64,000 bases of DNA from a virus (lineage: Duplodnaviria > Heunggongvirae > Uroviricota > Caudoviricetes): the IMG/VR virus record IMGVR_UViG_3300027295_000004. One strand, given 5' to 3'. The notes under the pieces were generated by a model, which was not told the origin of the DNA, ran no database searches, and saw nothing but the letters and a program-made list of their open reading frames with translations. A program made the position numbers and the translations under genes. The stretch's first letter is position 1; every line of letters starts with the position of its first letter. Shown one piece after another: positions 9,295 through 31,506 of this stretch.

Positions 9295-9370
9295 TGGTAG
9301 CCACGGTCGGACTCGAACCGACACTCTACGGATTTTAAGTCCGTTGCCTCTGCCATTGGACTACGTGGCC
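9295..9370 (-). tRNA. tRNA with anticodon UAA (Leu-type), but with a 4-nt variable loop (class I architecture)
   Basis: Minus strand: ggccacg-ta-..-acgga-cttaaaa-tccgt-agag-tgtcg-ttcgagt-ccgac-cgtggct-a-cca. Confidence 0.55.
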
Positions 9371-12527: not shown

Positions 12528-13553
12528 TTATTTGTTTGAGTCGTAATCGAGATTGATGATCTTGAACGAACCTTTGCTGTGTCGAACTACTACACCTTCA
12601 AAGGGTTTGCCATCGATTTGATTGATTCCTTTTTGGTAGAAGTTAATCATATCTTCGGATAGCAACGGCCTCACAGAGTGTTCAAAGTCAACAGTGTAAT
12701 TGTCGTTTACAAACGGCACATGAGGAATTTGTAATACAGCCGCCACGTTCGGGGAGTAATCAGCGTCGCCTTCCTTTTCATACTTCAGGGTATTAAGATT
12801 GAAGACACTGAATACGGCAAAGTCCAAGGGACCTTTGCTGTGTGGGTTCTTGCTGAAATTTTGGATATTGCCTCCATAGATTTCACCTCGAAGAGCAAGT
12901 GATACGTCGTTCCGTTTGCAATACTCAAGAAGCTTCTCGAGAATATTGTATTTCTTCACGATCTTGGTATAGTTGTTATTAGTTTCTGGTTTGATTTCTA
13001 GATTGCGACTAGTAACACCAGTAGACCATTCTCCGGTCGACGGATCTTTGCGTGCGTAGTAAGTAGCACTTTGCCCATCAATCTTCAGGGTGACATCAAC
13101 CTTTTCACCATACGGGAGAAACCCGATAAGGTTCTGGAATCGTTCTTCGTCAGTCTTCACCAGACTATACGGCAGATTCCCTTTAGCATCCAGAGAGGTT
13201 GGAGCAGGTGGGTCGTACTTATATACCCCAATATGGGAACTAATCTCAGTACCAACTTCGACATTTTGAAGATCGAATAACGAGTCTACTTCGGTAAGTC
13301 CCATGATAATACCAAACGACCATTCGCCTCGAAGCTTGATAGCTTTGACTCGCGACGACTTTTTCTTAAAGATTTCAGCCCAGGGCTTATCTGGAAGAAC
13401 AGTATCGGGCTGGATAAAGACTACACGATCACCTACCTTATATTTGTCTTTAAGAGTGATGCATTCATATCCTAGAACTCCAACGAGATCCAACGAATCT
13501 GCATTGGGATGATGTTTGACAGCAGCGATGGTTTCAATAGAGGCGAGCTTCAT
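12528..13553 (-). CDS. RNA ligase (Rnl2-type nucleotidyltransferase) with an N-terminal tRNA-binding OB-fold (Trbp111/EMAP-like) domain
   Basis: N terminus MKLASIETIAAVKHHPNADSLDLVGVLGYECITLKDKYKVGDRVVF resembles the tRNA-binding arm of Trbp111/MetRS; ligase motif I is LKIDGQS, motif IV is EGVVVRH, motif V is FKIIN. Start moved to the internal Met at 13553. Confidence 0.6.
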   Translation of the reverse strand: MKLASIETIAAVKHHPNADSLDLVGVLGYECITLKDKYKVGDRVVFIQPDTVLPDKPWAEIFKKKSSRVKAIKLRGEWSFGIIMGLTEVDSLFDLQNVEVGTEISSHIGVYKYDPPAPTSLDAKGNLPYSLVKTDEERFQNLIGFLPYGEKVDVTLKIDGQSATYYARKDPSTGEWSTGVTSRNLEIKPETNNNYTKIVKKYNILEKLLEYCKRNDVSLALRGEIYGGNIQNFSKNPHSKGPLDFAVFSVFNLNTLKYEKEGDADYSPNVAAVLQIPHVPFVNDNYTVDFEHSVRPLLSEDMINFYQKGINQIDGKPFEGVVVRHSKGSFKIINLDYDSNK

Positions 13554-13593
13554 GTAGTTAATATAGCTCGAGGTGTGATGTGTATCAACTATT

Positions 13594-13944
13594 TTAGCAT
13601 TTAAGCCAGCGCCATCTTTTATGTCGAACTGCCCATTTTCGTGGGATCCATGACAAAATTTTATTGACAAACGACATGACAACTTTGTTGTATTTATACT
13701 CAGTTGCATCCCCTTGTTTCCATACGACGATATGGTCGGGCACCACTGTTGGTCTGTTATTGCCTATGCGATAGACTCGATTCCAATATACAATATCTCT
13801 ATATGGAGACACCCAGCCTTGGAACCTATCATATCGTGCTGTTAATGTGTCGTAGCTTCTTCTGGAGAAACTTCGTTCGGCATAGTGCCCATCTTCATGA
13901 TAGACATATATCGTTGCATTTCCGAAATCATTAAGGGGATTCAT
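13594..13944 (-). CDS. Hypothetical protein (116 aa)
   Basis: ORF. Confidence 0.4.
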   Translation of the reverse strand: MNPLNDFGNATIYVYHEDGHYAERSFSRRSYDTLTARYDRFQGWVSPYRDIVYWNRVYRIGNNRPTVVPDHIVVWKQGDATEYKYNKVVMSFVNKILSWIPRKWAVRHKRWRWLKC

Positions 13945-14116
13945 TGAAGTATTTAATTATTTGTATTTTTTCATTATGGTGAAAATTGTCATTCAAACAA
14001 TCGTAAACCTGTTTGTTTGTTTCAGACAATTTGTTGTATTCCATTTTATGGATAGCACTACAACTGGTTAGGAAAAATAAAATCGAAGCAAGGAAAAGTT
14101 TCATTATAGAAACTAC

Positions 14117-14572
14117 TTACTTCCGTCGAATCTTGGATAATATGCGTTCGTACATTATTCTACAATGTCTATATCTAAGGCGTGATTTCAGGATATCTGC
14201 GGATGCTTTTAGGCTACCCCATTTAAGCACTTTGATATTAAAGAACTTTACACCCCATCGGCGCATAGCACTTTTTGAAGGCTGATAGATATCAACCACT
14301 GGCGTTGCGCCAACAGGCTTTACCAATGCAGACCCATAGTCGGTGATGACATATCTTTTATTGTCAATCAATAAAATAGTTCCTGCTGGAAAGACAGACC
14401 AGTCAGATGCAGCAGATGTAACGCCAAGAGGAGTTCCTAATGCTGTTTTACTTTTGTACCTAATATGATCCTTTTCTGTATGAGTATACGCAGTCGTCTT
14501 AATGTGGATATCAGCTCCGTTGCATGACAGCGAAGATATCGCCAACACTAATGATAATAATATACTCTTCAT
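14117..14572 (-). CDS. Secreted protein or lipoprotein, possibly with a 3D/DPBB-like cell-wall-binding domain
   Basis: Signal peptide MKSILLSLVLAISSLSC; weak similarity to 3D-domain proteins. Confidence 0.4.
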   Translation of the reverse strand: MKSILLSLVLAISSLSCNGADIHIKTTAYTHTEKDHIRYKSKTALGTPLGVTSAASDWSVFPAGTILLIDNKRYVITDYGSALVKPVGATPVVDIYQPSKSAMRRWGVKFFNIKVLKWGSLKASADILKSRLRYRHCRIMYERILSKIRRK

Positions 14573-14577
14573 AATTT

Positions 14578-15114
14578 TTAATCATATTTGAAATCTGGAG
14601 ACGTTTCATTAAACAGTCTGTAGCTGCGGATAGGTGCTATGTCAGTTAACGTAACTGCTTGAACCTCAACACCCCATTTCTTTGCTTCTGACGCTGCATG
14701 TTTTGTAAGCTGCCGATCAATAGTATTACTGAAACATTCGTCTAGATTCGATTCTGTAAGAACTCTTTTAATAATACCTTGTGTCACATCAGCGAGTGCA
14801 TCCTTCGCGGCGTTCGCTGTTAAGAAGAATGTTTTGCCATCGACAATTTTATATTTTATAACACCCTTGACAACTAAATTTGTTTTACTTTTTTGAATGA
14901 AAAGGGATTGGGGTGGCAAACTAATTGTAGTGATGACAGTGTAGTACTCATGTATTTCATCAATTACGGGGAACTTAAAGTGTATTCCGGGTTTGAGTGT
15001 TCTGTGATATTTCCCTAAACGAAATACAACTGCTTCGCTGTACGCAGGTATAACTACCGCTGGCTTTAGATAATACCAGCAACTTATTAGGGCGTCAATT
15101 AGGCGTTCTAACAT
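14578..15114 (-). CDS. SPFH/band-7 (stomatin/prohibitin-like) domain protein
   Basis: N-terminal hydrophobic segment followed by VIPAYSEAVVFRLGKYHRTLKPGIHFKFPVIDEI, typical of SPFH. Confidence 0.55.
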   Translation of the reverse strand: MLERLIDALISCWYYLKPAVVIPAYSEAVVFRLGKYHRTLKPGIHFKFPVIDEIHEYYTVITTISLPPQSLFIQKSKTNLVVKGVIKYKIVDGKTFFLTANAAKDALADVTQGIIKRVLTESNLDECFSNTIDRQLTKHAASEAKKWGVEVQAVTLTDIAPIRSYRLFNETSPDFKYD

Positions 15115-15158
15115 TTATTTATTTGCACCTGTCATCAAATGTCTTTATAACATTTAAT

Positions 15159-15434
15159 TCACTTGGTGGGAAGTGGAAGCGGATCTTCTGGCAGAGGGGT
15201 GATTGCTTTTGGAATCCATGAGAACCCAATGCCGATATTAAAGTATGGCTTGACCCGATAAATCTTTGTAGATGCACCAACTGATGCACCGTATCCATTA
15301 TCTGTCTGTCCTATCTTCGCATCGATCGATCCGTTGACCTTTGCTTCGTCGGCGAGTCCCTCGACTGTTGGTTTAATAGTGTTACAACTTGACAATGTCA
15401 GTGCAGTGATTAGCATCAGAATTAGCTTGCTCAT
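15159..15434 (-). CDS. Small lipoprotein
   Basis: Signal peptide plus lipobox LTLSSC. Confidence 0.45.
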   Translation of the reverse strand: MSKLILMLITALTLSSCNTIKPTVEGLADEAKVNGSIDAKIGQTDNGYGASVGASTKIYRVKPYFNIGIGFSWIPKAITPLPEDPLPLPTK

Positions 15435-15484
15435 ATGTTTACTTACTATAAATTGTGGTTGTTTTCAAATCAACAGGTGTTTGC

Positions 15485-16243
15485 TCAGTCCTCAACAACT
15501 TTGCCATCTGCATTTTTGATGGTAGCCCCCTTGCTTGTTTTGAATGGAATCCGAACATTATTGTATGTGTTACTATCCTTTACTTCTAGAATTCCTTTGG
15601 AAACATTCCATGCAGTATCCGTGCCAATAAACGTGTTCTTACTGCATGTAGCTAAGCTATCGCTGTTCGCCCAAGACGATTCATGAACTCGAACTCCAGT
15701 GATACCACCATAGATTATGTTGTTGTTAATCACTGCACCATCTGCCTGGTTGAGTTGAATTGACTTATCTCCTTTGTTGCTGTTCATGAATTCACAATAA
15801 GATACTTTGAAGTTCTTTGCTTTGATGCTTGTAGAGACCGCATCTTCGCCTACATTAAGAAATGTCACATACTCAATACCTGAATTTGGTTTAGCAAACA
15901 TCGCCGCATTCTTATTGTTTCGGACGAATCCGTTTTTAACAACAAGAGGGATATTTGCTACAAATAGCGGTTCCTGTGTTTCACTTTGTCCTCCATCTCC
16001 TCGTTGCTTAGTCCCATCTAAGATACCTCCTTTCAAGTCTAGAATGTATACACCGTCTTTGTTAATTGCTTTTGTGTCTAATGTTTTTTCTGCTTCTTTC
16101 AAATCCCTCGAATCATTAATATGCCACGATGTTGGTTTGTACACCTTCGCTGATGGTGAGGGTGTACGATACTCTGGTTTTGGGCTTACTGTGCTGCAAC
16201 CTATTAGAAGCGAGCACAGAAGAAGTGTGAATGTTGATTTCAT
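15485..16243 (-). CDS. Lipoprotein with a right-handed beta-helix (pectate-lyase-like) region
   Basis: Signal peptide with lipobox LLIGCS; repeats such as NNNIIYGGITGVRVHES. Confidence 0.45.
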   Translation of the reverse strand: MKSTFTLLLCSLLIGCSTVSPKPEYRTPSPSAKVYKPTSWHINDSRDLKEAEKTLDTKAINKDGVYILDLKGGILDGTKQRGDGGQSETQEPLFVANIPLVVKNGFVRNNKNAAMFAKPNSGIEYVTFLNVGEDAVSTSIKAKNFKVSYCEFMNSNKGDKSIQLNQADGAVINNNIIYGGITGVRVHESSWANSDSLATCSKNTFIGTDTAWNVSKGILEVKDSNTYNNVRIPFKTSKGATIKNADGKVVED

Positions 16244-16476
16244 TTAGGAATAAGCAAATTTGTGAGGTTCTTTAATTGATCGTTTGTCATGTGAATATAT
16301 TCAATATCATCTCCATAGTATTCGACATCATTCACCTTTGCTATTTTGATATTTGACAAAATAAGATCACAAATGGATGCAGATTTTGGATCTGTGTGGT
16401 CAATGCGAATTTGTTGAATAATCGCTTCTAACCGATCCAAAGTATCTGCATTCCATTTGTGAAGTGTGTTTAGCAT
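16240..16476 (-). CDS. Hypothetical protein (78 aa)
   Basis: ORF. Confidence 0.35.
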   Translation of the reverse strand: MLNTLHKWNADTLDRLEAIIQQIRIDHTDPKSASICDLILSNIKIAKVNDVEYYGDDIEYIHMTNDQLKNLTNLLIPK

Positions 16477-16576
16477 ATATAAATCGTGTCCAACATCTTA
16501 TCCATGATGGGACCGAAGATACTAATATCCAGAGGACATAGTTGCAAGAGCACGTTCAGTGTTAGTTCAATCATAA

Positions 16577-17281
16577 TTATTCAGTGTAGTGGTACATATA
16601 CGCTTCATGGCAATCAACGCAGCGGAATTTGGTATTCTCAACGAATGCGGTTGCTGATTCATGGAAGTGACCAAAGAACCAATGCTTTGGTTTAGTTAGT
16701 TGATACAGCTTATCCATATCTTCATTTTCAATCTTGAGATCCTGTTCCAGATCTTTATCAGCCACCATCATCGATTTGACAAAGTTATTAATACCAAAAA
16801 GACCCGAGATCGGGGGGCGGGTATGAGTTACTACAGCATCGTATGTTTCGTATGCAAAATTCTCATTAAGATAGAACGTTTCATTTTTCCACCAAGTAGG
16901 AATGCTAGTATTATATCTATCAATCCGATCAATCGATACTGCACCGCCTACAAGAAGAATTTTCTTACCAAGCAATTCAAGAACAGTATAGTCGGGGAGC
17001 AATTCGATATTGTCATACCCTCCTATTGTCTTCCTAGTATTAAAGTATCCTGGGTCATCATGGTTTCCACGAATGACATACAAGTGACTATTCGATTCAG
17101 CAAGGAACTTGTGAAGTGGTTTGAGTAATTTTGGGTACTCATGATCCTCAAAGAAACCAATACCAAAATCCCCCACATGGATGATATGAGCATTCTCGAT
17201 TTGATTTCGCTTAAGCTTAATAGCAAAAAGACCAACATCTCCGTGAATGTCTCCAGCAATAATAATTTTATCTTTTGTCAT
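16577..17281 (-). CDS. Calcineurin-like metallophosphoesterase
   Basis: Motifs GDIHGD, GDFGIG, GNHDD and GHFHE (binuclear metallophosphatase signature). Confidence 0.7.
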   Translation of the reverse strand: MTKDKIIIAGDIHGDVGLFAIKLKRNQIENAHIIHVGDFGIGFFEDHEYPKLLKPLHKFLAESNSHLYVIRGNHDDPGYFNTRKTIGGYDNIELLPDYTVLELLGKKILLVGGAVSIDRIDRYNTSIPTWWKNETFYLNENFAYETYDAVVTHTRPPISGLFGINNFVKSMMVADKDLEQDLKIENEDMDKLYQLTKPKHWFFGHFHESATAFVENTKFRCVDCHEAYMYHYTE

Positions 17282-17282
17282 A

Positions 17283-18074
17283 TCAAGCAGCCAGATTAAG
17301 TCGTTTGAAGTTGTTTTTCTTTACCATATCATATACACCGTATCTGTCGAGGATGAGGCGTTCAAGGATTTCGATATCATGGGCATCCTCGAAATTCCAA
17401 AGCATCTTTGAGATGACAGGGCACTCTGCAATGAAAAGATCCCGGATGGCTTCTGCTACTTCACGGCATTCTTTTTGTGTAGTCTTGTATAGGCGTTTGT
17501 TGAGTGTCGTAATCCAATCTCGCACTTTGCCATTGAAGACAATCTTTGTCTGTGTTGCCTCTGGCATCACCATTCGTGCACATTCCTTCGCTACTCCATT
17601 CTTAATGAGTTCCTGGTATAGCTCTCGTGTTTGGTTGAGATGATCTTCAATCGCTTCTGACGCATGTCTACTCTCATCTGTATACATATCATCTGCACTC
17701 TTAAACAATACTGGATTGATGAGATCCGTCGATGATTGCCTATTGTTAGTGCATTGCGCTCTAATCTCGATTGGTTCGAATTCAGAGACTGCCTTATATC
17801 GCTGGCTGAGCTCTTGTGGTTGAAGACTCCAATGACGAAGTAGTTCCCGACCGATTGCTCTGCTGGTGATGATTTCGATACCCAAGTTTGCCATTGCGAA
17901 TACCGACCAATGACCTTCTCGGAGACAATGCCTTAGGAGCTTGTGCGGCTCCGTAAACAGTTCATTGACTTCTCTTGAAGAGGAGATTCTAGCAATCCCG
18001 ACAAGGATCTCATCGATGCTCTTGTCTGTGAATTCGGCGACGCCTGTTGTTTTTGTTACAAGTCTGACTTCCAT
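17283..18074 (-). CDS. thyX: Flavin-dependent thymidylate synthase
   Basis: ThyX signature LLRHWSLQPQELSQRY (RHRx7S/SQRY-type) and GHWSVFAMA. Confidence 0.8.
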   Translation of the reverse strand: MEVRLVTKTTGVAEFTDKSIDEILVGIARISSSREVNELFTEPHKLLRHCLREGHWSVFAMANLGIEIITSRAIGRELLRHWSLQPQELSQRYKAVSEFEPIEIRAQCTNNRQSSTDLINPVLFKSADDMYTDESRHASEAIEDHLNQTRELYQELIKNGVAKECARMVMPEATQTKIVFNGKVRDWITTLNKRLYKTTQKECREVAEAIRDLFIAECPVISKMLWNFEDAHDIEILERLILDRYGVYDMVKKNNFKRLNLAA

Positions 18075-18124: not shown

Positions 18125-18367
18125 TCACCAAGCAGATGGATTGCATATATTCCGAAACAGATACTGAATATAGAATCGACACTTCAGATATGTGTTGAAT
18201 AAGAGTTGTTCTTTTTGACTATAGATTTTGTAATCGTCTGGTATTGTATACCAGAAACCATACTTCAGGAATGAGTCACTGTCGATATGTTTTCTGATCT
18301 TGCGAATTTGTTGGAGGCGAGGATCTTGTGTCATTGTGACATTATTTATTTTACGAACATCTGCCAA
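18125..18367 (-). CDS. Hypothetical small protein
   Basis: ORF only. Confidence 0.3.
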   Translation of the reverse strand: MADVRKINNVTMTQDPRLQQIRKIRKHIDSDSFLKYGFWYTIPDDYKIYSQKEQLLFNTYLKCRFYIQYLFRNICNPSAW

Positions 18368-18945
18368 TCATCACGCAAAATATCAAATACTACACCATCT
18401 TTTGGTTTGGTGGGTTTCCATAGCAACTTCAACCCACATTCAGACGGAGTCCTATCTGCTTTAGCGTTATTCACTTCGCGATCACAGCAGACCAAATTAT
18501 CCCAAGTGTTGGTACCACCTCTGCTAGAAGGAATGATATGATCAACACTGAGTTCACTCTTTTGTAGTTTCTTTCCGGTGTATGCACAAGTATAGTTATC
18601 TCTCCGAAAAATGTTTTGCTTAGTAGGAAATTTGCCCTTCTTAATGACCATTCGGTCGAATCTGCTACAGATCACAATGGAGGGCAACCGCACTGGTCCT
18701 TTGGATGTTTGTACATAATCATCACAAGGACGAATAGGTAGCTTGATCCATTGCTTCCAGTCCTTGATTGCGATGAACGATTCTATTTGCGTAGTATCGT
18801 ACGACCCATCCTCATTCTGGGTGTAGCTAATATCCAGTGGGACAAAAGATTTGGAGAAAATACCAACCATGATATCAGACCAACTAGCCGGTTCTAGTGG
18901 TTGATAGTTAGCATTGAGCTTTAAAATTGGTCTCTTTGAGATCAT
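18346..18945 (-). CDS. HNH endonuclease (free-standing, homing-type)
   Basis: CAYTGKKL..SVDHIIPSSRGGTNTWDNLVCCDREVNNAK matches the HNH motif. Confidence 0.7.
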   Translation of the reverse strand: MISKRPILKLNANYQPLEPASWSDIMVGIFSKSFVPLDISYTQNEDGSYDTTQIESFIAIKDWKQWIKLPIRPCDDYVQTSKGPVRLPSIVICSRFDRMVIKKGKFPTKQNIFRRDNYTCAYTGKKLQKSELSVDHIIPSSRGGTNTWDNLVCCDREVNNAKADRTPSECGLKLLWKPTKPKDGVVFDILRDDWQMFVK

Positions 18946-24965: not shown

Positions 24966-25042
24966 GGGGGTGCATGTACTAAGGCTAGCGAGACTGATTT
25001 GCAATCAGACTGTTGTGGGTTCGATTCCCACCATCTCCACCA
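24966..25042 (+). tRNA. tRNA (anticodon probably UGC, Ala); D-arm pairing is poor
   Basis: Acceptor gggggtg/catctcc-a-cca; T-arm gtggg-ttcgatt-cccac; anticodon loop tttgcaa. Confidence 0.45.
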
Positions 25043-25046
25043 ATTT

Positions 25047-25139
25047 GGATGATTAAGCAGACAAGCGTGCTGCATCTGTTTGGAAGACAGATTGATCTAG
25101 TGATCCTAGGTTGGGGTGCAAGTCCTCATTCATCCGCCA
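25047..25139 (+). tRNA. tRNA-Ser (GGA), class II, with a non-canonical T-loop TGCAAGT
   Basis: Acceptor ggatgat/ttcatcc-g-cca; anticodon tctgt-ttggaag-acaga; long variable arm; D-loop lacks GG. Confidence 0.55.
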
Positions 25140-25145
25140 CTTTCT

Positions 25146-25221
25146 GGTGTTGTATTTTAATCGGCAAATTGCTATCCTGTCACGATAGATGATGCGGGTT
25201 CGAATCCCGTCAGCACCGCCA
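25146..25221 (+). tRNA. tRNA-Asp (GUC)
   Basis: Acceptor ggtgttg/cagcacc-g-cca; anticodon ctatc-ctgtcac-gatag; T-arm gcggg-ttcgaat-cccgt. Confidence 0.65.
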
Positions 25222-25227
25222 ATTTAT

Positions 25228-25320
25228 GGGTAGCTAAACAGACAAGCGCGCTGTAACCGCCTTGAAAGCGGATTGATCTAGTGATCCTAGGTTGGGGTGC
25301 AAGTCCTCAGTTACCCGCCA
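25228..25320 (+). tRNA. tRNA-Ser (UGA), class II, non-canonical T-loop TGCAAGT
   Basis: Acceptor gggtagc/gttaccc-g-cca; anticodon loop cttgaaa. Confidence 0.55.
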
Positions 25321-25464
25321 ATTAAGCATCAACTATCCACACTTTATGAGGAAATCCTCACAAGCTATCCCTTATATGGCTCTGGTCAAACATGGGCTTG
25401 TGCATGTTTGTAGATGATAACAGTGCTCACTGGAAAATAGCTAACTCTTAGTGGAGCACATTTC

Positions 25465-25538
25465 GGTCTTTTAGTTTAATGGTAAAACGACGCACTTGTA
25501 ATGCGTTGATTCCGGTTCGACTCCGGACAGGACCTCCA
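25465..25538 (+). tRNA. tRNA-Thr (UGU)
   Basis: ggtcttt-ta-gttt-aatggta-aaac-g-acgca-cttgtaa-tgcgt-..-tccgg-ttcgact-ccgga-caggacc-t-cca. Confidence 0.65.
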
Positions 25539-25547
25539 TTTCTTTTT

Positions 25548-25623
25548 ACGTGCTAATGTCCCAAGGCAGGCGAGTTGGACTCCAAATCCGACTGGGTCAG
25601 TTCGATTCTGACAGCACGTGCCA
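25548..25623 (+). tRNA. tRNA-Trp (CCA)
   Basis: Acceptor acgtgct/agcacgt-g-cca; anticodon ttgga-ctccaaa-tccga; T-arm gtcag-ttcgatt-ctgac. Confidence 0.55.
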
Positions 25624-25628
25624 ATTTC

Positions 25629-25702
25629 GGCCTATTAGTTTAGTGGTAAAACAATTTACTCGTAATGAATAGTCCCCAGCTCAATTCTGGGATAGGCCTC
25701 CA
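25629..25702 (+). tRNA. tRNA-Thr (CGU)
   Basis: Acceptor ggcctat/ataggcc-t-cca; anticodon attta-ctcgtaa-tgaat. Confidence 0.6.
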
Positions 25703-25708
25703 TCTTAT

Positions 25709-25785
25709 GCGGTTGTAGCTCAATTTGGTAGAGCGCATCCTTGCCAAGGATATTGTCGCAGGTTCGAATCCTGTCAGCCGCACCA
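25709..25785 (+). tRNA. tRNA-Gly (GCC)
   Basis: Canonical: gcggttg-ta-gctcaatttggtagagc-..ttgccaa..-gcagg-ttcgaat-cctgt-cagccgc-a-cca. Confidence 0.7.
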
Positions 25786-25787
25786 AT

Positions 25788-25880
25788 GGGTAGTTAAGCA
25801 GACAAGCGTACTGCAACCGTCTCGAAAGCGGATTGATCTAGCGAACCTAGGTTGGGGTGCAAGTCCTCAGCTACCCGCCA
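25788..25880 (+). tRNA. tRNA-Ser (CGA), class II, non-canonical T-loop TGCAAGT
   Basis: Acceptor gggtagt/gctaccc-g-cca; anticodon loop ctcgaaa. Confidence 0.55.
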
Positions 25881-25888
25881 TTTTATAT

Positions 25889-25962
25889 GGTCCTTTAGCA
25901 TAATGGTAATGCATCGGATTTTGATTCCGACTATGATGGTTCAATTCCATCAGGGACTTCCA
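25889..25962 (+). tRNA. tRNA-Gln (UUG)
   Basis: D gcat-aatggta-atgc; anticodon tcgga-ttttgat-tccga; T gatgg-ttcaatt-ccatc. Confidence 0.6.
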
Positions 25963-25972
25963 ATTTCTTTTG

Positions 25973-26047
25973 GCTCGAATAGCACAATGGTGAGTGTATT
26001 TCCTTGGTATGGAAGGGATGTGGGTTCGATTCCCACTTTGAGCCCCA
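25973..26047 (+). tRNA. tRNA-Thr (GGU)
   Basis: Acceptor gctcgaa/tttgagc-c-cca; anticodon tttcc-ttggtat-ggaag. Confidence 0.55.
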
Positions 26048-26050
26048 CAC

Positions 26051-26122
26051 GCCTCTGTAATTCAAAAGTAGAATGGTTGTTTCATAAGCAACACGGTGAA
26101 GGTGCAAGTCCTTCCGGAGGTA
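26051..26122 (+). tRNA. tRNA-Met/Ile2 (CAU), non-canonical T-loop TGCAAGT, D-loop without GG; CCA not encoded
   Basis: gcctctg-ta-attc-aaaagta-gaat-g-gttgt-ttcataa-gcaac-acggt-gaagg-tgcaagt-ccttc-cggaggt-a. Confidence 0.5.
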
Positions 26123-26131
26123 CTAATTTAT

Positions 26132-26800
26132 ATGCCAAACACTGCAATTTTATTCACAGGAAACGTACACGGTGACACCATTGATGTTCTAATTGAACAG
26201 ACCAAAAATCAGACAAATAAAATAGCATCAATATGGGAAAATGAATCACCTGAATATGTCGACAAATTAAAAAACAACAATTTTAAAATCATTTACAATA
26301 GTGTAAAACAACAAGAAATATATAAACCACAGTTTATTACTGTACATAATGGGTTGAAGTATCTTAAAGAAAACGGATATGAATATGTATTAAGGACTCG
26401 TTTTGATATACTATGTCAAGATTATGATAGATATTTAGAGATACTGGCGAAGTCGTATCGCGAAAAGCTAACAGCTATCGCTGGCATAGAGACATCTACC
26501 ACTTATTTTTTAGATATTATTATAGGTGGGAAAATTGATGAGATGCTTAAATTTTTCGCATTGCAGCCAAACTATGATGTTAGGTACTATGAAAAATTTT
26601 TAATAGAAAATTACTCAAATAAAACAAATCTAACTAAAGAAGAAATAAGAAATATATTGAATTTCTCGTTAAGTGATTGTGTCAATAACAACATTGAATT
26701 CATATGGTACAGGCCAATTTCGTGGAAGTCGCAAACGATCACGTGGCCAGACATGAGAGTAATTAATGAGTATTGCAAAAATAATTTTATCTGGATGTAG
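26132..26800 (+). CDS. Hypothetical protein (223 aa) encoded by a markedly AT-rich ORF inserted within the tRNA array
   Basis: ORF 26096-26800 trimmed to the ATG at 26132 to clear the tRNA; K/N/I/Y-rich composition unlike flanking DNA; its stop overlaps the 5' end of tRNA-Pro. Confidence 0.45.
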   Translation: MPNTAILFTGNVHGDTIDVLIEQTKNQTNKIASIWENESPEYVDKLKNNNFKIIYNSVKQQEIYKPQFITVHNGLKYLKENGYEYVLRTRFDILCQDYDRYLEILAKSYREKLTAIAGIETSTTYFLDIIIGGKIDEMLKFFALQPNYDVRYYEKFLIENYSNKTNLTKEEIRNILNFSLSDCVNNNIEFIWYRPISWKSQTITWPDMRVINEYCKNNFIWM

Positions 26801-26867
26801 TTCAGCTTGGTAGAACATTTGATTTGGGATCAAAAGGTCGTGGGTTCGAATCCCACCATCCAGACCA
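26791..26867 (+). tRNA. tRNA-Pro (UGG)
   Basis: ctggatg-ta-gttc-agcttggta-gaac-a-tttga-tttggga-tcaaa-aggtc-gtggg-ttcgaat-cccac-catccag-a-cca. Confidence 0.65.
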
Positions 26868-26870
26868 ATT

Positions 26871-26878
26871 TATAAATA
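26871..26878 (+). promoter_or_regulatory. TATAAATA motif (T4-late-promoter-like) between tRNA-Pro and the second tRNA-Met
   Basis: Exact match. Confidence 0.25.
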
Positions 26879-26924
26879 AACAAGTTGATAACAACACAAC
26901 CACGTGTTAATATTAACTACACAT

Positions 26925-26999
26925 TGCGGGATAGAGCAGTAGTAGCTCAACTGGCTCATAACCAGGAGGTCGGTGGTGCAAGTCCATCTCCCGCAACCA
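26925..26999 (+). tRNA. tRNA-Met/Ile2 (CAU), second copy, non-canonical T-loop TGCAAGT, D-loop agtagta
   Basis: tgcggga-ta-gagc-agtagta-gctc-..-ctcataa-..-ggtgg-tgcaagt-ccatc-tcccgca-a-cca. Confidence 0.5.
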
Positions 27000-27013
27000 A
27001 TTTCAACATATGT

Positions 27014-27109
27014 GCTCCTGTAGCTCAATTGGTAGAGCGGAAAGCTTATACCTTTCGTATGCCCCAGATTAGGGCGCGGTTGTCGGTTCGAATCCGGCCA
27101 GGAGTACCA
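27014..27109 (+). tRNA. Atypical tRNA with anticodon UAU (Ile-type) and a ~25-nt variable region
   Basis: gctcctg-ta-gctcaattggtagagc-g-gaaag-cttatac-ctttc-[25 nt]-gtcgg-ttcgaat-ccggc-caggagt-a-cca. Confidence 0.4.
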
Positions 27110-27127
27110 ATTTCAACGAAAACAAAA

Positions 27128-27451
27128 ATGACTAAAAAAGATCGCAACAAACCCACATATGAGTGGATTGATGTAAATGCTGGTGAAGCATATTACTCTT
27201 TATATGCATATTGTTTAGACAACGCCGATCAACTAAACGGCCATCCTGGAATTCAAATCGGGTGTTATCATTACGCCATCAGCAGAAAGATGACACCAAA
27301 AAAACCATTCAAAGTACATGCTAGGAAAATGAATCAAGGGCATATATGGAGAGGCTGGGGTAGATCTTACATTAAAGTAGATCGCGACATTCAGGTAGAT
27401 AACAAAAAAAGATTCTGGCCTACACACAATCAAATTTCAATAGAAGTTTAA
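27128..27451 (+). CDS. Hypothetical protein (107 aa)
   Basis: ORF 26885-27451 trimmed to the Met at 27128; the upstream part overlaps two tRNAs. Confidence 0.4.
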   Translation: MTKKDRNKPTYEWIDVNAGEAYYSLYAYCLDNADQLNGHPGIQIGCYHYAISRKMTPKKPFKVHARKMNQGHIWRGWGRSYIKVDRDIQVDNKKRFWPTHNQISIEV

Positions 27452-27460
27452 CCTGCACAT

Positions 27461-27535
27461 GCCTCTGTAATTCAATGGTAGAATAACAGACTTTTAATCT
27501 GAAGGTTATGGGTTCGAGTCCCATCGGAGGCACCA
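27461..27535 (+). tRNA. tRNA-Lys (UUU)
   Basis: gcctctg-ta-attc-aatggta-gaat-..-cttttaa-..-atggg-ttcgagt-cccat-cggaggc-a-cca. Confidence 0.6.
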
Positions 27536-27604
27536 ATTTATACAGTCAACGCTCTGATATATTGCTATAGTATATAAGTAATAATTTAATTTAATTTTTA
27601 ATAT

Positions 27605-27679
27605 TCCTCAGTGGCAGACTAGCAATGCACCCGACTGTTAATCGGGATTATGAAGGAGCGTAACCTTCCTGAGGAGCCA
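27605..27679 (+). tRNA. tRNA-Asn (GUU) with an aberrant T-loop (AGCGTAA) and a D-loop without GG
   Basis: Acceptor tcctcag/ctgagga-g-cca; anticodon cccga-ctgttaa-tcggg. Confidence 0.45.
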
Positions 27680-27743
27680 ATTTATAACTGCGATCAAAAC
27701 ACAAAGCAGTTGCTAATAACAACACCCGATGTGAATATATAAC

Positions 27744-27992
27744 ATGAAGAAAACTCAACGCCAATGTGCAGACGACTTAGTCAACTACATCATTCGTAAA
27801 GAACTTATTCACATCAAGTCAGAATATCTTCTTCGCATTGAAAATAGTGAATGGATGGCATGTGGCACAGAGGATAAAACCAGAATTGAAGAATTGCAAC
27901 GGGACATTCAAAGTGCTCGAGAATATATTAGTGTACTGGATGAGTACATCACTAAATTTGAAAAAGTAGAAACCTCGCCATTGTTCAATTAA
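27744..27992 (+). CDS. Hypothetical protein (82 aa)
   Basis: ORF inside the tRNA array. Confidence 0.4.
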   Translation: MKKTQRQCADDLVNYIIRKELIHIKSEYLLRIENSEWMACGTEDKTRIEELQRDIQSAREYISVLDEYITKFEKVETSPLFN

Positions 27993-28280
27993 ATGGAACA
28001 ACTAATAGAACCATTCTGCTACATTGCAAATGTCAAAGTTACAGATAAAAATGGCAAACAAGGGAATAGACCGTTAATTAGATTTCAAGCACCTGACTCG
28101 GGATTAAATTTTAATACTTATTACGTTGCGTGCGCATGTGCTTCTGTATACAACATGTTCCTTGATTATATTGCCGAGAAAGATCAAATAGAATTTGAAA
28201 AACAATTCAAAGAGATATTCAATAAGCTTATCGATGAAGGTCTAATAGAAATCATGAAAGACAAACCAATTTCGGGTTGA
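27993..28280 (+). CDS. Hypothetical protein (95 aa)
   Basis: ORF; its stop overlaps the 5' end of tRNA-Phe. Confidence 0.4.
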   Translation: MEQLIEPFCYIANVKVTDKNGKQGNRPLIRFQAPDSGLNFNTYYVACACASVYNMFLDYIAEKDQIEFEKQFKEIFNKLIDEGLIEIMKDKPISG

Positions 28281-28349
28281 TAGCAATGATGGTTCATGCG
28301 TCTGTCTGAAGAACAGATCATCTCGGTTCGAATCCGAGTCAACCCACCA
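28274..28349 (+). tRNA. tRNA-Phe (GAA)
   Basis: gggttga-ta-..-tctgt-ctgaaga-acaga-tcat-ctcgg-ttcgaat-ccgag-tcaaccc-a-cca. Confidence 0.65.
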
Positions 28350-28354
28350 CTTAT

Positions 28355-28429
28355 GTCGCCGTCGTCTAATGGTTAGGACGGAGGATTTTCATTCCTCAAA
28401 TGGGGGTTCGATTCCCCTCGGCGATACCA
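28355..28429 (+). tRNA. tRNA-Glu (UUC)
   Basis: gtcgccg-t-cgtc-taatggttag-gacg-gagga-ttttcat-tcctc-..-ggggg-ttcgatt-cccct-cggcgat-a-cca. Confidence 0.65.
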
Positions 28430-28439
28430 ATTTCAATAC

Positions 28440-28534
28440 GGAGTGTAAACCAAACAGGCGCGTTGGAACTGTTTGCTAAACAGATTGTGGTTTTGCTAAA
28501 AAGCCATCTGGTTCGAGTCCAGTGCACTCCGCCA
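28440..28534 (+). tRNA. tRNA-Ser (GCU), class II with a long variable arm
   Basis: Acceptor ggagtgt/gcactcc-g-cca; anticodon loop ttgctaa; variable-arm stem ggtttt/aaagcc. Confidence 0.6.
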
Positions 28535-28540
28535 CTTTAT

Positions 28541-28615
28541 TGTCTCGTAGCTCATCGGTAGAGCACTTCCCTGATAAGGAATAGGTAGCTGGTTCGATTC
28601 CAGTCGGGACAACCA
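28541..28615 (+). tRNA. tRNA-Ile (GAU)
   Basis: tgtctcg-ta-gctc-atcggtag-agc-..-ctgataa-..-gctgg-ttcgatt-ccagt-cgggaca-a-cca. Confidence 0.6.
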
Positions 28616-28637
28616 ATTTCAATAACCAATACTAAAA

Positions 28638-28865
28638 ATGAAAAGATATCTTTTGATAGCAGGCCACGACTATTATCCTGGTGCGGGTACAAGCAATTGG
28701 GTTGATTCGTATGATTCATACGAAGAGGCTCTCAATATGGTTGAAACAATGGAAGAAAATAACTACGGTAGGTGTGGTTATACTATTGGAGATATGCCAT
28801 GTGATTGGTATGAAATAGTAGATTTAAACGAATGGAGTCCTCGCAATTCAATTTCAACATATTAA
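28638..28865 (+). CDS. Hypothetical protein (75 aa)
   Basis: ORF. Confidence 0.4.
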   Translation: MKRYLLIAGHDYYPGAGTSNWVDSYDSYEEALNMVETMEENNYGRCGYTIGDMPCDWYEIVDLNEWSPRNSISTY

Positions 28866-28870
28866 ATCCA

Positions 28871-29968
28871 ATGCAAACACTTTACAAATACAGTACCAAA
28901 GGCGCACCTCTTCAGTGGAGCATTGAAGTAGAAGGTGACAAGTATCGAACGATTGAAGGGCAAGTAGGAGGCAAGCTGACTACTTCGCAATGGACTATTT
29001 GTTTCGCAAAGAATGTTGGTAAGGCAAACGCAACTACGGCAGAAGAACAAGCTCTGAAAAAGGCTGAATCTATCTATCGCAAGAAAAAGGACGCCGGATT
29101 CAGCGAGACATTGGAATCATCTGGTGCGAATTTCTTTGAACCGATGCTTGCTCATAAATGGGATCAGCACCCTCTAGCACCTGGTACACCATTGGCTCTT
29201 CAGCCCAAACTAGACGGACATAGATGCATTGCGTATCTTAAAGATGGTAAAGTATATCTCCAAAGTCGAAAGGGCAAACAGATCACTTCATGCACCCATA
29301 TTGAAAATGCTCTTGAAGATTTATTCAAAGAAAATCAATCTTTTATTCTAGATGGTGAGCTTTACAATCATACCATTCCGTTTGAAAAGATTTCGGGGTT
29401 AGTTCGTCAAATTGAACACACTGCGGAATGCAAAGATATTCAATATCATGTTTATGATCTTGTTGATCTAAATAACCGACAACTAACTTTCGACGAAAGA
29501 AATTGGCAATTGGTTACAAAGCAATTACGGCTTTGTAATAATGAGCATATAAACATGGTTACTACATTGTTCGTAAATGGCAGCGATGCTATTGCGGAGT
29601 ATGAAAGTGAGTGTGTGGAAGATGGATATGAAGGTATCATGATTCGTGATACTACATCTATCTATGAGAATAAAAGATCGAAAGGACTTCTGAAACTCAA
29701 ACAATTCCAAGACGAAGAATTCAATATTGTCGAAATCAAAGAAGGTCAAGGTAATCGCACCGGACTAGCCACAGAAGCAGTATTGGCTCTTGAAGACGGT
29801 AGAGCTTTTTCTACTGGAGTTATTGGCAACGAAGAATATGCACGTGGCTTATTTAATGACCGCGAAAAAGTCAAAGGGATGCTAGCCACAGTAAAATACC
29901 AAGGAAAGACTGCACAGGGGATTCCTAGATTTGGTAAAATGAAAATCGTAAGATATGAAGGATTCTAA
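28871..29968 (+). CDS. ATP-dependent DNA ligase
   Basis: Motif I KLDGHR, motif III ILDGELY, motif IV EGIMIRD, motif V LLKLK; start set to the Met at 28871 after the upstream stop. Confidence 0.85.
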   Translation: MQTLYKYSTKGAPLQWSIEVEGDKYRTIEGQVGGKLTTSQWTICFAKNVGKANATTAEEQALKKAESIYRKKKDAGFSETLESSGANFFEPMLAHKWDQHPLAPGTPLALQPKLDGHRCIAYLKDGKVYLQSRKGKQITSCTHIENALEDLFKENQSFILDGELYNHTIPFEKISGLVRQIEHTAECKDIQYHVYDLVDLNNRQLTFDERNWQLVTKQLRLCNNEHINMVTTLFVNGSDAIAEYESECVEDGYEGIMIRDTTSIYENKRSKGLLKLKQFQDEEFNIVEIKEGQGNRTGLATEAVLALEDGRAFSTGVIGNEEYARGLFNDREKVKGMLATVKYQGKTAQGIPRFGKMKIVRYEGF

Positions 29969-29970
29969 GT

Positions 29971-30363: not shown

Positions 30364-30387
30364 CAGCCCCGTTGTATAATTGTTTAC

Positions 30388-30463
30388 GCGGTAGTAGCTC
30401 AATTGGTAGGGCGTCTGACTTCCACTCAGAATGTTGCAGGTTCGAGTCCTGTCTACCGCACCA
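30388..30463 (+). tRNA. tRNA-Gly (UCC)
   Basis: gcggtag-ta-gctcaattggtagggc-g-tctga-cttccac-tcaga-atgtt-gcagg-ttcgagt-cctgt-ctaccgc-a-cca. Confidence 0.65.
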
Positions 30464-30492
30464 CATTCAACCAAATCAACCAAATCAACATA

Positions 30493-30627: not shown

Positions 30628-30630
30628 AAT

Positions 30631-30927: not shown

Positions 30928-30941
30928 CCTTAAATACTCTT

Positions 30942-31415: not shown

Positions 31416-31506
31416 TTTAAATTTGGCATGGACGACTAGACGGACGCATGTCGAGGATATCCAACATCAGTTCAACTAGTGACTGCGGGAGAGAACCGCA
31501 CAATTT

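What the first reader, a model, noticed from the sequence alone, without database searches (positions are those of the whole stretch)
12528..17281. Candidate tRNA-repair module: RNA ligase fused to a tRNA-binding domain plus a metallophosphoesterase
An Rnl2-type ligase (KIDG...EGVVVR) carries an N-terminal Trbp111/EMAP-like tRNA-binding OB-fold. A calcineurin-type metallophosphoesterase lies 3 kb away on the same strand; binuclear metallophosphoesterases serve as the 2',3'-phosphatase in bacterial Pnkp-type RNA repair. With about 31 phage tRNAs nearby, this looks like a counter-defence against host anticodon nucleases, built from parts different from T4 Pnk/Rnl1. No kinase P-loop was found.
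Basis: inference. Interest (0 to 1): 0.65.

Follow-up and report, generated by a model that had tools for sequence, protein, structure and literature searches.

The report
Ordinary phage Rnl5 RNA ligase
The region encodes a standard member of a known RNA ligase family (Rnl5, nick-sealing) and, 3 kb away, an unrelated-looking metallophosphoesterase; they do not form a compact repair module here, although similar genes sit together in RNA-repair clusters in a few other phages.

Summary
Both genes exist at the stated coordinates. The ligase is not Rnl2-type. It is a textbook Rnl5-family (DraRnl/NgrRnl) nick-sealing RNA ligase. Its true start is M53 of the ORF (12528-13553, minus strand, 341 aa), and every catalytic residue is conserved. 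The N-terminal OB fold does resemble Trbp111, EMAP and the PheRS B2 domain. However, it is the defining Rnl5 N domain, noted in the literature since 2004-2007. In crystal structures it holds the ATP gamma-phosphate for lysine adenylylation. tRNA binding has never been shown.

No kinase, Pnk or Rnl1 is present in the 64 kb window. Among 84 phage Rnl5 loci, this phosphoesterase family shows no tendency to lie close to the ligase. A different phosphoesterase family does. Two contigs carry compact Pnk-Rnl5-phosphoesterase clusters, so the repair idea is partly supported in general but weakly for this window. This is a new member of a known kind, of low interest.

The parts
12528..13553 (-). Rnl5-family ATP-dependent RNA ligase CDS, 341 aa including the stop codon.
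   Evidence: PDB best hit is NgrRnl 5cot, 1.6e-26, across both domains, with the alignment starting at M53. TIGR02306 RNA_lig_DRB0094 5.4e-41. PHROG 968 8e-52. Called as 341 aa on identical ENA contigs.
13188..13553 (-). Ligase N-terminal OB domain (aa 1-122), the Rnl5 signature domain with a tRNA_bind-like fold
   Evidence: Pfam PF21189 1.2e-14; tRNA_bind PF01588 only 0.048, below cutoff. AF2 model pLDDT 90.6. Foldseek: NgrRnl TM 0.80-0.87, then PheRS-B2, Trbp111 and EMAPII. D50, R68 and K112 correspond to Ngr D53, Dra R79 and Ngr K121 and are conserved.
12528..13187 (-). Ligase nucleotidyltransferase domain (aa 123-341). Motifs: I TLK157IDG, Ia S182-R183, III E224, IIIa F248, IV E319GVVVR, V SFK331. 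The protein ends 10 aa after motif V, with no C-terminal appendage.
   Evidence: Pfam PF09414. All positions are conserved in 125 aligned Rnl5 sequences including DraRnl.
13083..13085 (-). Codon of Lys157, the predicted adenylylated nucleophile
   Evidence: Aligns with DraRnl K165 and NgrRnl K170; invariant in 125/125 sequences (PMC1807946, PMC4408790).
13554..13709 (-). In-frame 5' extension of the ORF, most likely not translated as part of the ligase
   Evidence: No homologue covers it. It overlaps the 116-aa ORF at 13594..13944.
16577..17281 (-). Stand-alone binuclear metallophosphoesterase, 234 aa ('family B' in this report). Motifs GDIHGD, VGDFG, RGNHD, THT, GHFH.
17283..18074 (-). thyX (flavin-dependent thymidylate synthase). 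Its stop codon is 1 nt from the phosphoesterase start.
   Evidence: Pfam Thy1 1.1e-34; sequence at the junction.
18346..18945 (-). HNH endonuclease, 199 aa. It is the most consistent neighbour of the family-B phosphoesterase in other phages.
   Evidence: Pfam HNH_4/HNH_5. 56-63% identical to the HNH next to family-B MPEs in L093-L095, and 35% to the HNH in the L055 and L091 repair clusters.
13594..16476 (-). Six or seven intervening genes unrelated to RNA repair: a 116-aa ORF, a 57-aa lipoprotein, a 3D-domain lipoprotein, an SPFH/Band7 protein, a 91-aa lipoprotein, a pectate-lyase-like lipoprotein and a 78-aa ORF
   Evidence: Pfam hits. Lipobox signal peptides are visible in the translations. 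Gene calls on ENA contigs.
24966..33311 (+). tRNA gene region: 28 ARAGORN calls plus one Rfam-only call at 27605..27676, interspersed with ORFs including an ATP-dependent DNA ligase
9295..9370 (-). Isolated tRNA-Leu(UAA), 3.2 kb downstream of the ligase

Best explanation
Window 12528-13553 (-) encodes a catalytically intact Rnl5-family RNA ligase, the family of Deinococcus DraRnl and Naegleria NgrRnl.

Inferred mechanism, from the family's solved structures and biochemistry. Lys157 attacks the ATP alpha-phosphate with two Mn2+ ions. [quoted passage not shown] AMP is then passed to a 5'-phosphate, and a 3'-OH RNA end attacks to seal the break. Family members seal 3'-OH/5'-PO4 nicks in base-paired RNA or RNA:DNA. 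They need clean ends and cannot use 5'-OH or 2',3'-cyclic phosphate ends directly.

In this tRNA-rich large phage the ligase most likely acts as the sealing step for broken structured RNA. Its physiological substrate is not established for any Rnl5 enzyme.

The metallophosphoesterase at 16577-17281 (-) is a separate gene of a widespread phage family. It has a Dbr1/Mre11-like phosphodiesterase fold. It is tied positionally to thyX and an HNH nuclease, not to the ligase. At most it is a loosely associated end-processing enzyme.

The two genes are not a dedicated two-gene module, and no 5' kinase is encoded in the window.
For: Ligase identity:
- Pfam PF21189 + PF09414; PHROG 968 'RNA ligase' 8e-52.
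- TIGR02306 (DRB0094 family) 5.4e-41.
- NgrRnl is the only PDB sequence family hit, 1.6e-26 over both domains.
- The N-domain model superposes on NgrRnl with TM 0.80-0.87.
- All catalytic positions are conserved: K157, D159, T134/D135/R138, R183, E224, F248, E319, K331, plus N-domain D50, R68, K112.
- 679 homologues all have the same two-domain architecture, many labelled 'RNA ligase (TIGR02306 family)'.

Family properties come from PMC1807946, PMC4408790, PMC7261155 and PMC5397189.

Phosphoesterase as a separate gene:
- 1-nt spacing from thyX.
- Six or seven unrelated genes lie between it and the ligase.
- Family-B distances to Rnl5 in 13 loci look uniform (2 within 2 kb, against about 2.6 expected).
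- Family B occurs in only 7 of 31 ligase lineages.
- Host distributions in INPHARED are nearly disjoint.
- HNH(-thyX)-MPE synteny is shared with L093-L095, where no Rnl5 lies within 10 kb.

General RNA-repair context for Rnl5:
- Pnk and/or Rnl1 lie next to Rnl5 in L055, L091, L086 and L076.
- tRNAs occur within the flank in 24 of 60 loci.
Against: - No biochemical data exist for this protein.
- The TIGR02306 score (140.6) is about 10 bits below the curated equivalog cutoff.
- DraRnl N-domain residues K26 and Q31 are not conserved here (G, E), and NgrRnl R4 aligns with Met1. NgrRnl R4A is tolerated, however (PMC7261155).
- A phosphoesterase of the same family sits 17 bp from Rnl5 in L029 and in an MPE-Pnk-Rnl5 row in L055. 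A functional link between the window's two genes therefore cannot be excluded.
- Only about one third of the genome (64 of at least 193 kb) was visible, so a kinase may exist elsewhere.
Confidence: 0.75

Rival explanations
1. The ligase uses its OB domain to bind tRNA. Together with the metallophosphoesterase, acting as 2',3'-cyclic phosphodiesterase and 3'-phosphatase, it forms a kinase-less tRNA-repair module that counters host anticodon nucleases.
For: - The OB domain has the Trbp111/EMAP/PheRS-B2 fold and a weak pheT/tRNA_bind sequence signal.
- Phosphoesterases recur near Rnl5. Family A lies within 10 kb in 12 of 31 lineages and within 2 kb in 6. Family B lies within 10 kb in 7 of 31 and within 2 kb in 2.
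- L029 has a family-B MPE 17 bp after Rnl5. L055 has the row MPE(B)-Pnk-Rnl5. L091 has Rnl1-kinase-HAD-Rnl5-MPE.
- The window has about 30 tRNAs, and tRNAs lie near 24 of 60 Rnl5 loci.
- The literature already proposes calcineurin-like phosphatases in jumbo-phage RNA repair (PMC7824862).
Against: - The window genes are 3 kb apart with six or seven unrelated genes between them. The MPE abuts thyX.
- Family-B distances to Rnl5 are as expected by chance.
- More than half of the Rnl5 loci have no MPE nearby.
- The MPE is not lambda/Pnkp-like.
- The compact clusters that do exist also carry a Pnk with its own HAD phosphatase. The MPE is therefore not a stand-in for it, and a kinase appears to be needed.
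- No kinase is in the window.
- Rnl5 enzymes seal duplex nicks, and the N domain's shown role is ATP binding (PMC7261155, PMC4408790).
- Classical anticodon nucleases leave 5'-OH ends, which an ATP-dependent ligase cannot join without a kinase (established knowledge).
Confidence: 0.2
2. The ligase serves DNA replication or repair rather than RNA repair. It seals nicks whose 3' end is ribonucleotide-terminated (RNA primers or embedded ribonucleotides) in phage DNA.
For: - DraRnl and NgrRnl join an RNA 3'-OH to 5'-phosphate DNA on a template. Loss of DraRnl delays genome reassembly after irradiation (PMC5397189, PMC4408790).
- The gene lies in a block with thyX, a RecA/KaiC-like ATPase and HNH. 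RNR and an ATP-dependent DNA ligase are in the same window.
- An ATP-dependent DNA ligase is a recurrent neighbour, in 19 of 84 loci, mostly one lineage.
Against: - The phage already has a DNA ligase.
- Rnl5 sits beside Pnk and Rnl1 in several phages, which points to RNA repair.
- The DNA-ligase neighbour signal is dominated by one lineage.
Confidence: 0.2
3. The metallophosphoesterase acts on nucleotides or nucleotide signals rather than on RNA ends. Examples are dNMP or cyclic-nucleotide hydrolysis, or degradation of defence second messengers. Alternatively it works with the HNH nuclease on DNA.
For: - The gene starts 1 nt after the thyX stop.
- HNH-MPE pairing recurs in the window, L024, L055 and L093-L095.
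- Structural neighbours include Rv0805 (a cyclic nucleotide phosphodiesterase), MPPED2, GpdQ, LpxH, Mre11 and SbcD.
- The literature predicts calcineurin-like phage phosphodiesterases against nucleotide signals (PMC7824862).
Against: - The top structural matches are RNA-acting enzymes (Dbr1, CWF19L1).
- The same family occurs inside the L055 repair row and next to Rnl5 in L029.
- There is no direct evidence for any substrate.
Confidence: 0.35

Closest known systems
Rnl5 family of ATP-dependent RNA ligases (Deinococcus radiodurans DraRnl/DR_B0094; Naegleria gruberi NgrRnl, PDB 5COT; phage homologues such as Aeromonas phage 44RR, Pseudomonas PAK_P1-like phages, BcepSauron)
   Same: - N-terminal OB domain followed by a C-terminal nucleotidyltransferase, with no C-terminal appendage.
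- About 340 aa.
- All NTase motifs and ATP-contacting residues are conserved.
- The N-domain model superposes on NgrRnl.
   Different: - Only 25-33% identical to the characterised or cultured-phage members.
- DraRnl K26 and Q31 are not conserved.
- The score is slightly below the TIGR02306 equivalog cutoff.
- The protein belongs to a large uncultured-phage clade with 52-78% identical relatives on 120-225 kb contigs.
T4 Rnl2 family
   Same: ATP-dependent; the same NTase superfamily motifs (KxDG, EGxVxK/R); nick-sealing specificity in vitro (PMC5397189).
   Different: Rnl2 has the NTase at the N terminus and a distinctive all-helical C domain. Here the order is reversed and the accessory domain is an OB fold. 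No Rnl2 hit appears in the PDB or NCBIfam searches.
Bacterial Pnkp/Hen1 and T4 Pnk/Rnl1 healing-and-sealing systems
   Same: The concept of a phosphoesterase plus a ligase. A few phages (L055, L091) place Rnl5 directly beside a T4-type Pnk and a metallophosphoesterase.
   Different: - No kinase, HAD phosphatase, Rnl1, Rnl4 or Hen1 is in the window.
- The MPE is not lambda-phosphatase-like.
- The genes are not adjacent.
tRNA_bind OB-fold proteins (Trbp111, EMAPII/p43, Arc1p-C, MetRS-C, PheRS beta B2)
   Same: The fold of the ligase N domain: Foldseek E 4e-5 to 3e-2, TM 0.43-0.62. There are weak sequence signals. This resemblance was already noted for DraRnl (PMC1807946).
   Different: The domain is below the Pfam tRNA_bind threshold. 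In Rnl5 it packs on the NTase and contacts the ATP gamma-phosphate. No tRNA binding has been shown for any Rnl5 (PMC7261155).
Dbr1/CWF19L1 and Mre11-type metallophosphodiesterases (for the phosphoesterase)
   Different: - 13-19% identity.
- The protein is 234 aa and lacks the Dbr1 C-terminal domain.
- The first metal motif is GDIHG with Asp, whereas Dbr1 has Cys there (my own knowledge, not tested).
- Sequence searches find only weak LpxH and YfcE similarity.

Membership tests
Rnl5 RNA ligase family | Domain order: N-terminal OB module followed by a C-terminal nucleotidyltransferase, with no C-terminal appendage | tested here: met
   PF21189 at aa 3-84 and PF09414 at aa 151-329 (341-aa numbering), both above gathering score. 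The protein ends 10 aa after motif V.
Rnl5 RNA ligase family | Motif I lysine nucleophile and NTase motifs Ia, III, IIIa, IV, V, plus the T-D-x-x-R ATP-binding segment | tested here: met
   K157, D159, G160, S182-R183, E224, F248, E319, K331 and T134-D135-R138 align with the essential DraRnl and NgrRnl residues. They are conserved in 123-125 of 125 sequences (PMC1807946, PMC7261155).
Rnl5 RNA ligase family | N-domain residues that engage the ATP gamma-phosphate and metal (Ngr R4, D53, K121; Dra K26, Q31, R79) | tested here: inconclusive
   D50, K112 and R68 are conserved. Ngr R4 aligns with Met1 (Lys2 is adjacent). Dra K26 is replaced by G and Q31 by E in this clade.
Rnl5 RNA ligase family | Sequence and structure similarity to characterised members across both domains | tested here: met
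   NgrRnl 1.6e-26 over aa 1-285. N-domain model TM 0.80-0.87 to NgrRnl. TIGR02306 is the top NCBIfam hit at 5.4e-41, although 140.6 bits is below the equivalog cutoff of 151.15.
Rnl5 RNA ligase family | Mn2+/ATP-dependent sealing of 3'-OH(RNA)/5'-PO4 nicks in duplexes | not testable with these tools
   Requires enzyme assays.
Rnl2 RNA ligase family | N-terminal NTase followed by the Rnl2-specific helical C domain | tested here: not met
   The NTase is C-terminal, there is no C domain, and there are no Rnl2 hits.
Pnkp-type (Pnkp/Hen1) RNA repair | P-loop 5' kinase domain | tested here: not met
   No kinase-type Walker A ORF and no AAA_33/HAD_PNKP homologue in the 64 kb window. The rest of the genome was not visible.
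Pnkp-type (Pnkp/Hen1) RNA repair | Lambda-phosphatase-like binuclear phosphoesterase | tested here: not met
T4 Pnk/Rnl1 tRNA repair | Rnl1-type ligase and Pnk (kinase + HAD phosphatase) | tested here: not met
   tblastn and phmmer with phage Rnl1 and Pnk queries find nothing in the window. Both occur in related or comparable phage contigs.
tRNA_bind (Trbp111/EMAP) domain family | Sequence membership (Pfam PF01588 gathering score) | tested here: not met
   14.2 bits against a cutoff of 27. Weak hits in 6 of 15 Rnl5 N domains, best E 0.0077.
tRNA_bind (Trbp111/EMAP) domain family | OB fold of the Trbp111/EMAP type | tested here: met
   Foldseek hits to PheRS beta, 3bu2, MetRS-C, Trbp111 (3ers), EMAPII (1e7z, 1fl0) and Arc1p-C, ranking after NgrRnl.
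tRNA_bind (Trbp111/EMAP) domain family | Binds tRNA | not testable with these tools
   Needs binding assays. This has not been reported for any Rnl5 in the papers read.
Calcineurin-like metallophosphoesterase superfamily | D-x-H, G-D, G-N-H-[DE], H and G-H-x-H metal-binding motifs on the MPE fold | tested here: met
   GD11IH13, GD38, GN73H74D, H153 and GH205FH207 are invariant in 24 homologues. Pfam Metallophos. Confident MPE-fold model.

The most novel reading that the evidence does not exclude
Large uncultured phages may carry a loosely conserved set of genes that is an undescribed variant of RNA healing-and-sealing. The set comprises an Rnl5 ligase, one of two stand-alone metallophosphoesterase families, a small HNH nuclease and sometimes a T4-type Pnk. 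In this variant a Dbr1-like phosphodiesterase would process 2',3'-cyclic, 2'-phosphate or 2'-5' ends. In kinase-less genomes such as this window, the ligase alone would reseal 3'-OH/5'-phosphate breaks made by metal-dependent (for example PIN-type) tRNases.
Probability: 0.12. Interest if true: 0.55.

Novelty: new member of a known kind. Interest (0 to 1): 0.22.

Why it matters
As it stands, the main value is to correct the annotation. This is an Rnl5 ligase, and its 'tRNA-binding fusion' is the family's normal architecture.

The physiological substrate of Rnl5 ligases is still unknown in any organism (PMC5397189). One observation therefore has modest use. In several independent phage lineages Rnl5 sits beside Pnk, Rnl1 and a metallophosphoesterase, and often near tRNA genes. 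This gives circumstantial support for an RNA-repair role and points to specific contigs (L055, L091, L029, L007) where a test would be cleanest.

For this window, the ligase-phosphoesterase link is too weak to claim a new counter-defence system.

Tried and rejected
- Megablast of 12000-18100 against INPHARED phages found no match. The phage has no close cultured relative.
- I scanned the window with concatenated pseudo-proteins joined by GS linkers. This produced spurious 'Serglycin' hits from the linkers and lost weak domains (HD_4, macro). I used it only to look for strong kinase or ligase hits, not as a full annotation.
- The promoter and terminator scan of 11000-18500 gave counts equal to the shuffled expectation. 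It says nothing about operon structure.
- An SPFH/Band7 protein looked like a recurrent Rnl5 neighbour (15 loci). It is confined to one ligase lineage and is not homologous to the window's SPFH by BLAST, so I rejected it as coincidence.
- Annotated neighbourhoods in phage K5, BcepSauron, a Jeotgalibacillus plasmid and D. radiodurans MP1 are mostly hypothetical proteins and were uninformative.
- The two unannotated flanking ORFs (355 aa and 116 aa) have no Pfam, PHROG, NCBIfam or PDB match. There is no sign of a hidden kinase, but remote homology was not excluded.
- Burroughs and Aravind 2016 (NAR, RNA repair systems) could not be retrieved. Whether they already describe Rnl5-phosphoesterase neighbourhoods is unchecked.
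- The rest of the phage genome (contigs up to 193 kb) could not be read, so 'no kinase' holds only for the window.

Full report
**What is at the coordinates**

Both are real genes. The first hits Pfam RNA_ligase (PF09414, 3.4e-14) and an N-terminal 'PHA02142 OB-fold domain' (PF21189, 1.4e-13). The second hits Metallophos (PF00149, 9.5e-14). PHROGs files them under phrog_968 'RNA ligase' (8e-52) and phrog_1649 'metallo-phosphoesterase' (2.6e-28).

The ligase almost certainly starts at the internal ATG at 13553.
- Homology to every relative begins exactly there, with MKLA[ST]IE.
- Gene callers on identical metagenome contigs give 341 aa.
- The upstream extension overlaps the preceding 116-aa ORF.

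**The ligase is Rnl5, not Rnl2**

- The only solved structures it matches by sequence are those of Naegleria gruberi RNA ligase, at 1.6e-26 across both domains.
- The best NCBIfam model is TIGR02306 'RNA_lig_DRB0094', the Deinococcus DraRnl family. The E-value is 5.4e-41, and the 140.6 bits fall just under the 151-bit equivalog cutoff.
- I aligned it with DraRnl (taken from plasmid MP1), phage K5 and BcepSauron ligases, a Jeotgalibacillus homologue and 120 metagenome homologues. Every residue shown to be essential or ATP-contacting in DraRnl or NgrRnl is present (PMC1807946, PMC7261155):
  - K157 in TLKIDG (the nucleophile) and D159
  - T134-D135-x-x-R138
  - S182-R183 (motif Ia)
  - E224 (motif III)
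  - F248 (adenine stack)
  - E319 in EGVVVR (motif IV)
  - K331 in SFK (motif V)
  - in the N domain, D50, R68 and K112
- Two DraRnl N-domain residues (K26, Q31) are not conserved. NgrRnl R4 falls on Met1.
- The protein ends 10 residues after motif V, with no C-terminal appendage. This is the family hallmark (PMC4408790).

The enzyme is therefore very likely active. By inference from the family it works through Lys-AMP and AppRNA intermediates. It should seal 3'-OH(RNA)/5'-phosphate nicks in base-paired nucleic acid and prefer Mn2+.

**The 'tRNA-binding domain'**

An AlphaFold model of residues 1-122 (pLDDT 90.6) matches NgrRnl first (TM 0.80-0.87, E about 1e-9). It then matches PheRS beta subunits, tRNA-binding protein 3bu2, MetRS C-terminal domains, E. 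coli Trbp111, EMAPII/p43 and Arc1p-C (E 4e-5 to 3e-2). Weak sequence signals agree: pheT_bact at 0.0095, and Pfam tRNA_bind in 6 of 15 N domains, all below threshold.

This is not a new fusion, however. The DraRnl papers already described the N module as a putative homologue of the PheRS B2 OB fold. [quoted passage not shown] The NgrRnl structures show it contacting the ATP gamma-phosphate and a metal (PMC7261155). No Rnl5 paper that I read reports tRNA binding. The physiological function of the family is described as uncharted, the only phenotype being radiation sensitivity of a Deinococcus knockout (PMC5397189).

**The phosphoesterase**

- Its metal-binding motifs are intact and invariant among 24 homologues.
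- Sequence searches give only weak LpxH and YfcE similarity.
- Its start codon is 1 nt after the thyX stop.
- Between it and the ligase lie six or seven genes of unrelated character. Four have lipoprotein signal peptides, including one with a 3D domain and one that is pectate-lyase-like. One is an SPFH/Band7 protein, and two are small ORFs.
- All genes from 299 to 22659 share the minus strand, so co-orientation is uninformative.

**Is the pair conserved?**

The same phage occurs in more than 100 metagenome samples on contigs up to 193 kb. Relatives with 52-78% identical ligases lie on 120-225 kb contigs. I collected 84 Rnl5 loci with up to 10 kb of flank on each side: four by exact-protein lookup and 80 from IMG/VR. 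I then searched them with motif patterns and HMMs built here.

Two phosphoesterase families recur.
- Family A (about 200 aa, SDTHFGH..., Metallophos_2; best PDB match aq_1665, with a weak PdeM signal) is found in 21 loci.
  - Ten of these lie within 2 kb of the ligase, against about 4 expected if placement were uniform.
  - This includes the window ligase's closest lineage: L007 at 38 bp upstream, L008 and L020.
- Family B, the window's family, is found in 13 loci.
  - Only two lie within 2 kb (L029 at +17 bp, L055 at -1 kb). The rest are 2.4-9.4 kb away, as expected by chance.
- After dereplication into 31 ligase lineages:
  - family A is within 10 kb in 12 lineages and within 2 kb in 6;
  - family B is within 10 kb in 7 and within 2 kb in 2;
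  - most lineages have neither.
- The window has no family-A gene.
- In cultured phages the two families barely overlap.
  - The ligase is mainly in Pseudomonas and Aeromonas phages.
  - Family B is mainly in Streptomyces and Mycobacterium phages.
- Family B's steadier companion is a small HNH nuclease. The window's HNH (18346..18945) is 56-63% identical to the HNH near family-B genes in L093-L095. Those loci also share thyX synteny and have no Rnl5 within 10 kb. The HNH-MPE pairing is also seen in L024 and L055.

**Support for a repair context in general**

Two contigs carry compact clusters.
- L055: HNH, MPE (family B), T4-type Pnk (AAA_33 + HAD_PNKP), then Rnl5 with a 1-nt gap.
- L091: Rnl1, HNH, kinase, HAD phosphatase, Rnl5, then an overlapping MPE of another type.

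Rnl1 lies within 10 kb of Rnl5 in seven loci. tRNA genes lie within the held flank in 24 of 60 loci, with arrays of six or more in 11. Iyer et al. (PMC7824862) already argue that tRNA-rich jumbo phages combine tRNA arrays with RNA ligases, kinases and phosphoesterases, 'in a small number' calcineurin-like, to counter tRNA-cleaving defences.

The clusters that look like real modules contain a kinase and a HAD phosphatase as well, which the window lacks. In relatives L093 and L094 a Pnk sits 6-7 kb from the family-B MPE. No counterpart exists at the syntenic place in the window.

**Verdict**

- The ligase is an ordinary, probably active Rnl5 enzyme (confidence about 0.95 for family membership).
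- I commit to sealing of clean 3'-OH/5'-phosphate breaks in structured RNA as its most likely role (about 0.5). Sealing of ribonucleotide-terminated nicks in DNA is the main alternative (about 0.2-0.25).
- The phosphoesterase is a separate gene of unknown substrate. I give about 0.2 to its cooperating with the ligase in RNA end-healing.
- The finding is a new member of a known kind and of low interest.
- The most useful by-product is a short list of phage contigs where Rnl5 sits in compact Pnk/MPE clusters. These could help assign a function to this still-orphan ligase family.

Noticed in passing
window 299-5480 (-): Tandem array of at least ten paralogous genes (125-209 aa). Each is built from repeated ~20-aa units of the form NNSLTSLEGAP-KVGG-F-C (leucine-rich-repeat-like) and has a conserved C-terminal tail. 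One metagenome contig of the same phage ends about 740 bp past its held locus, which I calculate maps to about window 1790 inside this array. This suggests an assembly break on the repeats.
   Followed up: no
window 38828-42708 (+): The ribonucleotide reductase alpha subunit is interrupted. The N-terminal part carries the RNR barrel to model position 390/523 plus an intein splicing domain. A 362-aa ORF with no Pfam hit follows, in which I found no Pfam family. Then a 187-aa ORF carries the last part of the barrel (458-522). This looks like an intein or free-standing endonuclease insertion, or a split gene.
   Followed up: partly
window 22675-23118 (+): A 147-aa protein with a weak NCBIfam match to the macro-domain antitoxin DarG (7.6e-09, far below cutoff; no Pfam hit). 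It may be an ADP-ribose-removing counter-defence enzyme.
   Followed up: partly
window 9389-9814 (-) and 21165-21632 (-): A small RelA/SpoT-like HD hydrolase (HD_4, spoT_relA 1.1e-12) and a DUF5662 protein. The HD gene and the adjacent tRNA-Leu(UAA) also occur near the Rnl5 gene in relative L008, but in a different order.
   Followed up: partly
window 28832-29968 (+) and 37551-38090 (+): An ATP-dependent DNA ligase (DNA_ligase_A_M 1.1e-23) sits inside the tRNA region. An Rv2179c-like 3'-5' exoribonuclease (7.8e-41) lies a few kb further on.
   Followed up: no
window 27605-27676 (+) and 27014-27109 (+): Rfam finds a tRNA at 27605-27676 that ARAGORN missed, giving 30 in all. The tRNA-Ile(UAU) call at 27014-27109 is unusually long at 96 nt.
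   Followed up: no
window 13931-16243 (-): A run of four ORFs with lipoprotein-type signal peptides: 57 aa, a 151-aa 3D-domain protein, 91 aa, and a 252-aa pectate-lyase-like protein. An SPFH/Band7 protein lies among them. This is an envelope-directed block wedged between the phosphoesterase and the ligase.
   Followed up: no
window 18346-18945 (-); L024, L055, L093-L095: A small HNH nuclease (HNH_4/HNH_5, about 170-205 aa) recurs next to the family-B metallophosphoesterase in several phage contigs and inside the L055 and L091 RNA-repair rows. It may be a functional partner of the phosphoesterase, or a mobile endonuclease that travels with it.
   Followed up: partly
L055 997-4457; L091 6888-11826; L007 9361-11002; L029 10001-11618: These phage contigs have Rnl5 tightly packed with a T4-type Pnk and/or Rnl1 and a metallophosphoesterase. 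They are the best candidates for testing what Rnl5 ligases do in phages.
   Followed up: partly
L093 9530-9961 and L094 9341-9775: A small dual-specificity-phosphatase-like (DSPc, weak) gene lies just upstream of the family-B phosphoesterase in two relatives (immediately adjacent in L093; a 64-aa ORF intervenes in L094). It has no counterpart in the window.
   Followed up: no
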